NCBI RefSeq assembly: GCF_055900595.2
Contig: NZ_CM148325.1
Direction: 5' to 3' (one strand)
Length of the DNA stretch: 64,000 bases
The position numbers and the translations under genes were made by a program. Positions within the stretch are counted from its first letter, which is position 1, and every line of letters begins with the position of its first letter. The notes under the pieces were generated by a model. It did not search any database, was not told the DNA's origin, and saw only the letters and a program-made list of their open reading frames with translations. This document shows, in pieces, positions 13,728-14,831 of the stretch.

Positions 13728-13916
13728 ATGTCTACTCAACTTGATCCCACCCAGCTGGCCATTGAATTTTTACGCCGTGACCAAAGCAATCTTTCACCTG
13801 CCCAATATCTCAAACGTCTGAAACAATTAGAACTTGAATTCGCTGACTTGCTTACTCTCTCTTCTGCTGAATTAAAAGAAGAAATCTACTTTGCCTGGCG
13901 TTTGGGCGTGCATTGA
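13728..13916 (+). CDS. ydiH: small protein of unknown function (62 aa from MSTQLDPTQ)
   Basis: ATG at 13728 within ORF 13647..13916; synteny between menI and sufA. Confidence 0.7.
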   Translation: MSTQLDPTQLAIEFLRRDQSNLSPAQYLKRLKQLELEFADLLTLSSAELKEEIYFAWRLGVH

Positions 13917-14054
13917 TCCTGACGTAATGCCGCGAGTTCGCCAAATCGGCCTGGATTAATCTTCGTCCAGGTTCGAGGGCCTTCTTAATACTGCTTATCT
14001 ACCCGCCTGATAACGTTCAAAAATAATACAAATCGCAGTTTGTGCTAAAACGGC

Positions 14055-14177
14055 GGCTTAGCTTTATGAGACTATTCTTATCGCCCCTTCGAGCTAAGCC
14101 ACTGTGAGTGCCGGAGATAAGCGCCGGATGGGGTAGAAACCCTTAAGCCTGTGATGCACAGACTTAAGGGTTTTCTT
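14055..14177 (+). ncRNA. Candidate small RNA locus ending in a strong intrinsic terminator (position matches rydB; sequence not verified)
   Basis: Nested inverted repeats (gcttagc/gctaagc, cttatc/gataag) followed by an 11-bp perfect stem aaacccttaag/cttaagggttt and a T-tract; about 220 nt downstream of ydiH and 290 nt upstream of sufA. Confidence 0.35.
14137..14177 (+). terminator. Rho-independent terminator (11-bp perfect stem plus T-tract)
   Basis: aaacccttaag-N15-cttaagggtttt followed by cttatttc; U-tract only on the + strand. Confidence 0.7.
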
Positions 14178-14267
14178 ATTTCTGAACGCTGCACTTTTTT
14201 ACCTATCTCTTAAATAGTCATTTTCAATACAACTTTTTCTTTTTCATCACAGCCTTAATGCTCCTTA

Positions 14268-14283
14268 GATAATAATCATTATC
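14268..14283. promoter_or_regulatory. Distal Fur-box-like motif (GATAATAATCATTATC)
   Basis: Shares the 12-mer ATAATCATTATC with the promoter-proximal site 133 bp downstream; matches Fur consensus GATAATGATAATCATTATC. Confidence 0.45.
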
Positions 14284-14403
14284 TAACAATGAGATACCTA
14301 ATTCTTAGCGTGCCTGTTAACCCACACATCAGGGTCTATGCTTATTAAAAGCAGGCAAAAAGCATGTTTTACGGTAAAGCCCCTGCGTTTGCTGGGTTGA
14401 ACT

Positions 14404-14416
14404 GATAATCATTATC
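14404..14416. promoter_or_regulatory. Promoter-proximal Fur box of the suf operon, overlapping the core promoter (TTGAAC -35-like just upstream)
   Basis: GATAATCATTATC about 47 bp upstream of the sufA ATG; suf operon is a known Fur target. Confidence 0.7.
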
Positions 14417-14462
14417 ACTAACATGCTGTTATACGCTGAAAGCGATGAAGTGAGGTAAATCG

Positions 14463-14831
14463 ATGGACATGCATTCAGGAACCTTTAATCCACAGGATTT
14501 CGCCTGGCAGGGTTTAACGCTGACACCCGCAGCCGCTGTCCACATCCGTGAGCTGGTGGCAAAGCAACCAGGTATGGTCGGCGTGCGCTTAGGCGTGAAG
14601 CAAACGGGCTGCGCGGGATTTGGCTATGTGCTCGACAGTGTTAGCGAGCCAGACAAAGACGATCTGCTGTTTGAACATGACGGCGCGAAGCTGTTTGTCC
14701 CGCTGCAAGCGATGCCGTTTATTGATGGCACGGAAGTCGATTTCGTTCGTGAAGGACTTAATCAGATATTCAAATTTCACAACCCGAAAGCCCAGAATGA
14801 ATGTGGCTGTGGCGAAAGCTTTGGGGTATAG
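14463..14831 (+). CDS. sufA: Fe-S cluster A-type carrier (122 aa)
   Basis: 122-aa [21 protein letters not shown]..., C-terminal CGCGESF motif. Confidence 0.95.

What the first reader, a model, noticed from the sequence alone, without database searches (positions are those of the whole stretch)
14265..14420. Two Fur-box-like motifs sharing a 12-mer, 133 bp apart, upstream of sufA
The promoter-proximal GATAATCATTATC (14404-14416) is where the suf Fur operator is expected. A second, equally good or better Fur-like match (GATAATAATCATTATC, 14268-14283) lies upstream and shares the exact 12-mer ATAATCATTATC. A distal site could support cooperative or looped repression, overlap an IHF/OxyR architectural region, or regulate the adjacent sRNA locus on the other side.
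Basis: partly seen in the sequence, partly recalled or inferred. Interest (0 to 1): 0.4.

Follow-up and report, generated by a model that had tools for sequence, protein, structure and literature searches.

The report
Fur-box look-alike inside sufA IHF site
The promoter-proximal motif is the well-known, universally conserved Fur repressor site of the E. coli suf operon. The upstream copy is most likely only the AT-rich flank of the known IHF bending site, which happens to resemble a Fur box in Escherichia, so the finding is ordinary.

Summary
The window is an E. coli chromosome segment carrying ydiJ-menI-ydiH-rydB-sufABCDSE. The 12-mer ATAATCATTATC occurs only at these two places in 64 kb, against 0.01 expected.

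The proximal motif (14403-14417, perfect TGATAATCATTATCA) sits in the -35/-10 spacer of PsufA. It is the published Fur operator and scores at least 14.6 bits in 79 of 79 Enterobacteriaceae.

The distal motif is a weaker Fur match, not an equal or better one: 14.1 against 19.4 bits, and 12/14 against 14/14 to the 7-1-7 motif.
- Its right half, CATTAT, is conserved across the family because it is the AT-rich 5' arm of a conserved IHF core. That core is TATCAATGCATTG in most genera and TAACAATGAGATA at 14284-14296 here.
- Its left half, GATAAT, exists only in Escherichia.
- The exact 12-mer match depends on a common SNP at 14276. T is found in 2142 and C in 3267 of 5426 complete E. coli genomes; K-12 has C (11.8 bits).
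- In CFT073, which has the T allele, published Fur ChIP-seq shows one sufA summit. It lies 4-10 bp from the proximal cluster and 129 bp from the distal site.

The distal motif lies downstream of rydB, so it cannot be that sRNA's operator. An auxiliary Fur/IHF competition role is not excluded but is unlikely.

The parts
14083..14141 (+). rydB small RNA gene, co-directional with sufA
   Evidence: Rfam RF00118, 71.7 bits, E=1.1e-16. K-12 annotates rydB at the corresponding place.
14137..14180 (+). Terminator-like hairpin (17-nt arms) followed by a T-rich tail, downstream of rydB/ydiH
   Evidence: Inverted repeat I1, 94% complementary with a 3-nt loop. The sequence continues GGGTTTTCTTATTTC. Function is inferred.
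14201..14240 (+). Conserved upstream block at about -230 to -191, the position of the published far-upstream OxyR site
   Evidence: Highly conserved columns CTAT...AAATAG.CATT..CAATAC across 79 Enterobacteriaceae. Reviews place the OxyR site far upstream and state that it needs IHF. The exact footprint limits are recalled from Lee et al. 2004 and were not read here.
14268..14283 (.). Distal Fur-box-like motif GATAATAATCATTATC (-163 to -148). The best 19-mer is 14265-14283 and the best 7-1-7 match is 14270-14284. It coincides with the AT-rich 5' arm of the IHF site.
   Evidence: 14.1 bits. The left half is found only in Escherichia; the right half CATTAT is conserved across the family.
14276..14276 (.). 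Common SNP inside the distal motif: T here, C in K-12, G in one Escherichia representative
   Evidence: alignment to MG1655. (2142 T genomes against 3267 C genomes, of 5426). (14.1, 11.8 and 7.1 bits respectively).
14284..14296 (+). IHF core element (-147 to -135), TAACAATGAGATA, matching WATCAANNNNTTR at 11 of 13 positions
   Evidence: At the aligned position, 42 of 72 non-Escherichia genera match WATCAANNNNTTR perfectly and 24 have one mismatch. The family consensus is CATTATTTATCAATGcATTG. IHF involvement at PsufA comes from the literature.
14375..14396 (.). IscR type-2 activator site region (about -56 to -35)
   Evidence: The published IscR-site mutations, deletion of -56 to -51 and -50C to G, map to 14375-14381 when +1 is 14431, and 14381 is C. 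The block AAGCCCCTG is conserved.
14397..14402 (+). -35 element TTGAAC of PsufA
   Evidence: It sits 16 bp upstream of TAACAT and is conserved in the family. Inferred from its position relative to the TSS.
14403..14417 (.). Proximal Fur operator, TGATAATCATTATCA, a perfect 7-1-7 motif. The matrix cluster spans 14398-14422.
   Evidence: 19.4 and 16.4 bits. Chen 2007 sufA cluster at ATG-53. The Fur* mutation -26 ATA -24 maps to 14405-14407. At least 14.6 bits in 79 of 79 genera. The ChIP-seq summit in CFT073 lies 4-10 bp away.
14419..14424 (+). -10 element TAACAT of PsufA
   Evidence: It ends 7 bp upstream of the TSS and is conserved. Inferred.
14431..14431 (+). PsufA transcription start (+1)
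   Evidence: This is the only numbering in which the published -26 ATA -24 and -50 C both fit the sequence.
14463..14831 (+). sufA coding sequence
   Evidence: ORF of 122 aa, annotated as sufA in E. coli genomes.

Best explanation
This is the known, multi-input suf promoter of E. coli. The proximal motif is the Fur operator. Fe2+-Fur bound in the -35/-10 spacer blocks RNA polymerase and the adjacent activator IscR.

The distal motif is not an independent Fur operator. It is the AT-rich 5' arm of the IHF site, which lies between the far-upstream OxyR site and the core promoter. IHF bends the DNA there so that OxyR can reach RNA polymerase.

The distal motif resembles a Fur box for two reasons. 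The family-wide flank CATTAT(T/C) already forms a Fur half-site. In Escherichia, a few substitutions then created GATAAT on the other side. The exact 12-mer identity with the proximal box is simply two matches to the same consensus half, and it holds only with the T allele at 14276.

Shown here: the anatomy, the conservation pattern, the polymorphism and the position of the ChIP summit. Inferred: that Fur occupancy and any regulatory effect at the distal motif are negligible.
For: 1. The proximal box scores at least 14.6 bits in 79 of 79 Enterobacteriaceae. The distal position has a median of 3.6 and a maximum of 10.9 bits in 72 non-Escherichia genera, and 7.3-14.1 bits in 7 Escherichia sequences.
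2. The alignment shows the family consensus AAAtcCATTATTTATCAATGcATTG. The core is a perfect IHF match in 42 of 72 genera, directly abutting the motif.
3. The only common variant in the 41 bp around the motif hits the Fur-box position corresponding to T12 of the 19-mer. T is present in 2142 genomes and C in 3267, and C costs 2.4 bits. That pattern is not what a constrained operator would show.
4. CFT073 carries the T-allele motif. Its published Fur ChIP-seq lists one sufA summit, at 1920586. That is -10/-4 bp from the centres of the two proximal-cluster sites and 129 bp from the distal site. This is the usual offset seen at 9 control peaks. By contrast, the two-cluster entC/fepB region has its summit pulled 27 bp off the stronger site.
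5. Chen 2007 lists only the ATG-53 cluster among strong sites. The field uses a 3-bp change in the proximal box as its Fur-blind PsufA variant.
6. Standard models of PsufA have a single Fur site, plus IscR, OxyR and IHF.
Against: - At 14.1 bits (11.8 in K-12), the distal site scores as well as some genuine Fur sites in my training set: exbB 10.8-13.0, bfd 12.1-14.2 and fepA-fes 12.3-13.8.
- It has the +3/+6 satellite matches typical of Fur clusters.
- It is unlikely under a composition-only null, P = 0.005.
- ChIP-seq resolution cannot exclude a minor shoulder 130 bp away, and the data come from a single growth condition (anaerobic, iron-sufficient).
- In Escherichia the IHF core has lost two otherwise invariant positions while the flank became more Fur-like. 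That could reflect a functional shift.
- The primary footprinting papers (Lee 2003, 2004, 2008; Outten 2004) and the K-12 ChIP-exo data could not be read here.
Confidence: 0.76

Rival explanations
1. The distal motif is an auxiliary Fur operator, specific to Escherichia, that competes with IHF. When iron is plentiful, Fur occupies 14265-14284 and excludes IHF from its overlapping site, which uncouples the OxyR site from the promoter. H2O2 induction of suf would then be gated by iron status, and the T/C SNP would tune the strength of this gate between phylogroups.
For: - The matrix score is within the range of real sites, with P = 0.005 against shuffles.
- The motif physically overlaps the IHF flank.
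- The IHF core is degenerate in all 7 Escherichia sequences while the flank gained GATAAT.
- The rest of the 41-bp segment is nearly invariant in E. coli.
Against: - There is a single ChIP-seq summit on the proximal site in a T-allele strain, with no pull toward the distal site.
- The weakening C allele is the majority allele. E. albertii, E. whittamii and another Escherichia representative score only 7.3-8.7 bits.
- No paper read here mentions a second Fur site.
- Repression from the proximal site already silences the promoter in iron-replete cells, so the added benefit is unclear.
Confidence: 0.12
2. Cooperative or looped repression: Fur bound at both sites interacts across 133 bp to stabilise repression of PsufA.
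For: Two Fur-like sites share a 12-mer at a fixed 133-bp spacing.
Against: - 133 bp is 12.7 helical turns, so the sites face different sides of the helix.
- The only bending protein available, IHF, binds a site that overlaps the distal motif, so it could not assist such a loop.
- The distal site is absent from 72 of 79 genera, all of which keep the proximal box.
- E. coli Fur is not known to bridge distant operators (general knowledge).
- There is a single proximal ChIP summit.
Confidence: 0.03
3. The distal motif marks a second, Fur-controlled upstream promoter. Its elements would be -35 ATCACA (14246-14251) and -10 GATAAT (14268-14273), giving a start near 14280 and a longer suf leader.
For: The promoter scan finds this 9/12 match with a 16-bp spacer, and the Fur-like box would cover its -10 and start. 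Fur boxes usually overlap promoter-like sequences (Chen 2007).
Against: - The match is no better than chance: 1 found against 1.3 expected in shuffles.
- AT-rich Fur-like sequence automatically resembles a -10 element.
- The putative -35 region is not conserved.
- No upstream start site was mentioned in any paper read.
Confidence: 0.04
4. The distal motif regulates the neighbouring small RNA gene rydB.
For: Only proximity: rydB lies about 130 bp away.
Against: rydB is on the same strand and ends upstream of the motif, with a terminator-like hairpin in between. The motif is therefore downstream of the gene and not at its promoter.
Confidence: 0.01

Closest known systems
Fur operator of the E. 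coli sufABCDSE promoter (Patzer & Hantke 1999; Lee et al. 2003, 2008; Outten et al. 2004; Chen et al. 2007; Mettert & Kiley 2014)
   Same: The proximal motif is this site. It has the same sequence as in K-12. Its position is ATG-53, or -27 to -15 from the TSS. It overlaps the promoter spacer next to the IscR site.
   Different: Nothing differs for the proximal site. The distal motif is not part of the described operator.
IHF site (ORE-II) of the suf promoter, which lets the far-upstream OxyR site act (Lee, Yeo & Roe 2004)
   Same: The distal motif is the AT-rich tract immediately 5' of the WATCAANNNNTTR core at 14284-14296. That position lies between the OxyR block and the core promoter, as in the published architecture.
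   Different: In Escherichia the core matches the consensus at only 11 of 13 positions, while most other Enterobacteriaceae match perfectly. The flank has acquired a GATAAT that makes it look like a Fur box.
Promoters with two separated Fur clusters, such as the fepB-entC divergent region
   Same: Two Fur-matrix hits lie roughly 115-135 bp apart in one intergenic region.
   Different: At fepB-entC each cluster overlaps its own promoter, and the ChIP summit lies between the clusters. At sufA the distal hit overlaps no supported promoter, and the summit sits on the proximal cluster.

Membership tests
Fur operator (Fur box) | Match to the 19-bp consensus GATAATGATAATCATTATC, the 7-1-7 motif TGATAATnATTATCA, or a Fur weight matrix | tested here: met
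   Proximal: 14/14 to the 7-1-7 motif and 19.4 bits. Distal: 12/14, 14/19 and 14.1 bits with the T allele, and 11.8 bits with the C allele. The distal score falls in the lower part of the training range of 10.8-23.3 bits.
Fur operator (Fur box) | Overlaps promoter elements (-35, -10 or the start site) so that bound Fur blocks RNA polymerase | tested here: not met
   This is met for the proximal site, which fills the spacer between TTGAAC and TAACAT. The distal motif lies at -163 to -148. The only promoter-like match there is at chance level.
Fur operator (Fur box) | Conserved in orthologous promoters of related species | tested here: not met
   The proximal site scores at least 14.6 bits in 79 of 79 genera. 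The distal position has a median of 3.6 bits in 72 non-Escherichia genera and 7.3-14.1 bits in Escherichia, and it is polymorphic within E. coli.
Fur operator (Fur box) | Occupied by Fur in vivo or in vitro | tested here: inconclusive
   Published ChIP-seq in CFT073, a T-allele strain, gives one summit 4-10 bp from the proximal cluster and 129 bp from the distal site, with no shift toward it. The resolution cannot exclude weak distal binding. The footprint papers and the ChIP-exo data are not held.
Fur operator (Fur box) | Mutation of the site changes iron- or Fur-dependent expression | not testable with these tools
   For the proximal site, the -26 ATA -24 to TAT change is used in the literature as the Fur-blind promoter. 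No mutant of the distal motif was found.
IHF binding site | Core WATCAANNNNTTR | tested here: met
   At the aligned position the match is perfect in 42 of 72 non-Escherichia genera and has one mismatch in 24. In the window the core is TAACAATGAGATA, 11 of 13.
IHF binding site | AT-rich tract 5' of the core | tested here: met
   Positions 14268-14283 are 13/16 A/T. The family consensus is AAAtcCATTATT immediately 5' of TATCAA. This tract is the distal 'Fur-like' motif.
IHF binding site | Located between a distant activator site and the promoter, and shown to bind IHF | tested here: inconclusive
   The position fits: the conserved OxyR-region block lies upstream and the core promoter downstream. 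IHF binding and its requirement are stated in secondary sources. The primary paper, Lee et al. 2004, could not be read, and its -156 to -127 limits are from memory.

The most novel reading that the evidence does not exclude
In the genus Escherichia, the ancestral strong IHF site of the suf promoter has been partly converted into a secondary Fur operator. Fe2+-Fur and IHF then compete for overlapping DNA, which makes OxyR/IHF-dependent peroxide induction of suf conditional on iron status. A common T/C polymorphism at 14276 would set the strength of this gate differently in different E. coli phylogroups. For example, CFT073, O157:H7 and ATCC 11775 carry T, and K-12 carries C.
Probability: 0.08. 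Interest if true: 0.45.

Novelty: already known. Interest (0 to 1): 0.13.

Why it matters
The finding matters little. The suf promoter is one of the best-mapped stress promoters in E. coli, and the proximal Fur box is textbook material. The analysis mainly illustrates two cautions.
- AT-rich architectural sites such as IHF flanks can mimic Fur boxes well enough to reach about 14 bits.
- An exact shared 12-mer can be an accident of one allele.

If the minority reading were true, it would add a lineage-specific link between iron sensing and peroxide induction of Fe-S cluster assembly, together with a natural allele series for testing it.

Tried and rejected
- Literature not held. I tried to read the primary papers: Lee 2008 (PMC2593202), Mettert & Kiley 2014 (PMC4248859), Seo 2014 ChIP-exo (by DOI and as PMC4167408) and a PMC93794 reference. 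None is held.
- Supplements not held. No supplementary files are held for Beauchene 2015 (the paper cites a Table S2 of K-12 Fur ChIP-seq peaks) or for Chen 2007, whose 363-cluster list is on an external site. I therefore could not check K-12 occupancy or whether Chen's model flags the distal site.
- Gao 2023 supplements contain only expression tables.
- Duplication of the core promoter. I considered that the distal motif is a duplicated copy of it, because GATAAT..CATTATC..TAACA..TG recurs at both sites. I rejected this because the family alignment derives the distal sequence from the IHF site by point substitutions.
- Regulation of rydB. Rejected on gene order.
- Upstream promoter. The only match is at chance level.
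- A whole-window Rfam scan of the region found only rydB.

Full report
**Identity of the locus.** The window is E. coli chromosome. ORFs and BLAST place ydiJ, menI, ydiH, the small RNA gene rydB and sufABCDSE on the + strand. sufA starts at 14463. Rfam finds rydB at 14083-14141 on the + strand (71.7 bits). A 17-nt-arm hairpin with a T-rich tail follows at 14137-14180. The ydiH-sufA intergenic region is 98% identical to K-12 MG1655.

**The observation.**
- GATAATAATCATTATC is at 14268-14283 and GATAATCATTATC at 14404-14416.
- The 12-mer ATAATCATTATC occurs only at 14272 and 14405 in the 64 kb, against 0.01 expected. The spacing is 133 bp.

**Anchoring the promoter.**
- A 2025 paper from the Kiley laboratory describes the Fur-blind PsufA variant as -26 ATA -24 changed to TAT. 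It describes the IscR-site mutants as a deletion of -56 to -51 and a change of -50C to G.
- With +1 at window 14431, -26 to -24 is 14405-14407, which reads ATA, and -50 is 14381, which reads C. Both fit the sequence, so I take 14431 as the start site.
- This gives -35 TTGAAC at 14397-14402 and -10 TAACAT at 14419-14424. The proximal motif fills the spacer between them, at -27 to -15.
- Chen et al. 2007 list the sufA Fur cluster at ATG-53, which is window 14410. It has 21.3 bits and three overlapping sites within 31 bp.
- The proximal motif is therefore the known Fur operator.

**How good is each site?** I built a symmetric 19-bp Fur weight matrix from 19 K-12 Fur promoters. I used the coordinates in Chen's Table 4 and left sufA out to avoid circularity.
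- Leave-one-out scores of the training sites run from 10.8 to 23.3 bits, with a median of 18.6.
- In the window, the proximal cluster scores 19.4 and 16.4 bits.
- The distal site scores 14.1 bits, with weaker satellites at +3 (6.2 bits) and +6 (2.9 bits).
- Against the 7-1-7 motif TGATAATnATTATCA, the proximal site is perfect (14/14) and the distal site is 12/14. Against the 19-mer consensus they are 16/19 and 14/19.
- The distal site is thus a respectable Fur-like match. It ranks 6th in the window, and P = 0.005 in shuffles of the 219-bp upstream region. It is nevertheless clearly weaker than the proximal site, not 'equally good or better'.
- The matrix also recovers the known ydhY cluster at 24105-24129, which serves as a positive control. 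It gives 14.9 bits to an intragenic site at 28425, which shows that scores of this size also occur inside a coding sequence with no promoter context.

**Allele dependence.**
- K-12 has C at 14276, giving GATAATAACCATTATC, so the exact 12-mer is not shared there.
- I ran megablast with 41-mers in which every 28-base seed word covers the SNP. It found the T allele in 2142 and the C allele in 3267 of 5426 complete E. coli genomes. Almost all of these matches were identical over all 41 bases.
- The only common variant in this stretch therefore hits an information-rich Fur-box position, and the weaker allele (11.8 bits) is the majority.
- T-allele strains include O157:H7, ATCC 11775 and CFT073.

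**Comparative evidence.** A scan of one genome per species with SufA gave 80 loci across Enterobacteriaceae. I aligned the 300 bp upstream of sufA from 79 sequences.
- The proximal box is essentially invariant, at 14.6 bits or more in 79 of 79.
- At the distal position, only the right half, CATTAT(T/C), is conserved.
- That half is followed directly by a conserved core. The family consensus is AAAtcCATTATTTATCAATGcATTGAAcAA.
- TATCAATGCATTG is a perfect match to the IHF consensus WATCAANNNNTTR. The match is perfect in 42 of 72 non-Escherichia genera and has one mismatch in 24.
- The distal 'Fur-like' motif is therefore the AT-rich 5' arm of the IHF site.
- This fits the published architecture, in which IHF bends the DNA so that the far-upstream OxyR site can act on the promoter. 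It also fits my recollection of the ORE-II limits, -156 to -127, from Lee et al. 2004, which I could not read.
- The left half, GATAAT, exists only in the seven Escherichia sequences. Even there the Fur score varies: E. albertii 8.0, E. whittamii 8.7, another representative 7.3, K-12 11.8, and the window 14.1 bits.
- Outside Escherichia, the aligned position has a median of 3.6 and a maximum of 10.9 bits, and 10 of 72 reach 8 bits. The IHF flank by itself therefore often gives moderate Fur-like scores.

**Experimental evidence that could be reached.**
- Banerjee et al. 2020 mapped Fur by ChIP-seq in CFT073. Their Table S5A lists one peak for sufA, with its summit at 1920586 and a height of 103.6.
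- CFT073 carries the same T-allele distal motif at 1920706-1920721, and the proximal box at 1920571-1920585.
- I calibrated the summits on nine other peaks from the same table. The strongest matrix site lies -21 to +27 bp from the summit, most often about -6 to -12.
- At entC/fepB, two clusters lie 115 bp apart, and the summit there is displaced 27 bp from the stronger one.
- At sufA, the summit is -10 and -4 bp from the two proximal sites and 129 bp from the distal site. There is no pull toward the distal site.
- This argues that distal occupancy is minor at best under those conditions. It does not exclude weak binding.

**Mechanistic considerations.**
- A Fur dimer on 14265-14284 would overlap the IHF site, whose core is at 14284-14296, so the two proteins could not bind together.
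- A Fur-Fur loop assisted by IHF is therefore not plausible, and 133 bp is 12.7 helical turns, which is out of phase.
- The one interesting possibility is competition: Fur displacing IHF and thereby making OxyR activation dependent on iron.
- In favour of competition, the Escherichia IHF core has lost two otherwise invariant positions (T14286 and T14294) while the flank gained GATAAT.
- Against it stand the polymorphism, the weak scores in other Escherichia species, the single proximal ChIP summit, and the absence of any mention of a second Fur site in the papers read.
- The rydB idea fails on gene order.
- An upstream promoter (ATCACA-16-GATAAT at 14246-14273) is only a chance-level match.

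**Verdict.**
The proximal site is the known Fur operator.
- The distal site is best explained as the AT-rich arm of the known IHF site. Its resemblance to a Fur box is specific to the lineage and to one allele.
- I put about 0.76 on this reading, about 0.12 on an auxiliary Fur/IHF competition site, and a few per cent on the other alternatives.
- The finding is of low interest, and the locus is already known.

Noticed in passing
window 14284-14296 (and L002-L006): All seven Escherichia sequences carry a degenerate IHF core, TAACAATGAGATA. It has two mismatches at positions that are otherwise nearly invariant: T14286 in 72 of 72 and T14294 in 68 of 72 other Enterobacteriaceae. Most other genera match WATCAANNNNTTR perfectly. 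IHF dependence of suf induction was nevertheless established in E. coli.
   Followed up: partly
window 14143-14156 and 14245-14258: A 14-nt inverted repeat, 93% complementary (TTAAGCCTGTGATG / CATCACAGCCTTAA), with 88 nt between the arms. The first arm is the left arm of the rydB/ydiH terminator hairpin. The second arm lies just upstream of the distal motif, in a stretch that is not conserved outside Escherichia. It might be a remnant duplicate of the terminator arm or an alternative pairing; this is unexplained.
   Followed up: no
window 14091-14092 (rydB): The rydB copy in this window lacks two bases present in K-12 and in the Rfam consensus (CCCCTTC--GAGCT against CCCCTTCAAGAGCT). It also has several other substitutions in the ydiH-rydB spacer. 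Only 8 of 5421 E. coli records are at least 99% identical over 13900-14470.
   Followed up: no
window 24042-24129: A strong cluster of Fur-matrix hits: 18.0 bits at 24105, 14.9 at 24111 and 13.0 at 24042. It corresponds to the ydhY-upstream Fur cluster listed by Chen et al. 2007 (19.9 bits, 7 sites, 103 bp). ydhYVWXUT is Fur-activated in CFT073 according to Banerjee et al. 2020.
   Followed up: partly
window 28425-28443: A Fur-matrix hit of 14.9 bits (AATAAATATTATCAATATC) inside a coding sequence (ORF 27798-28517, + strand). It shows that scores as high as that of the distal sufA motif also occur inside a gene, with no promoter context.
   Followed up: no
window 14358-14368 and 14420-14430: An 11-nt inverted repeat, 91% complementary (AAAAGCATGTT / AACATGCTGTT), that brackets the IscR site, the Fur box and the -10 region of PsufA. 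Both arms lie in conserved sequence. Its significance is unknown.
   Followed up: no
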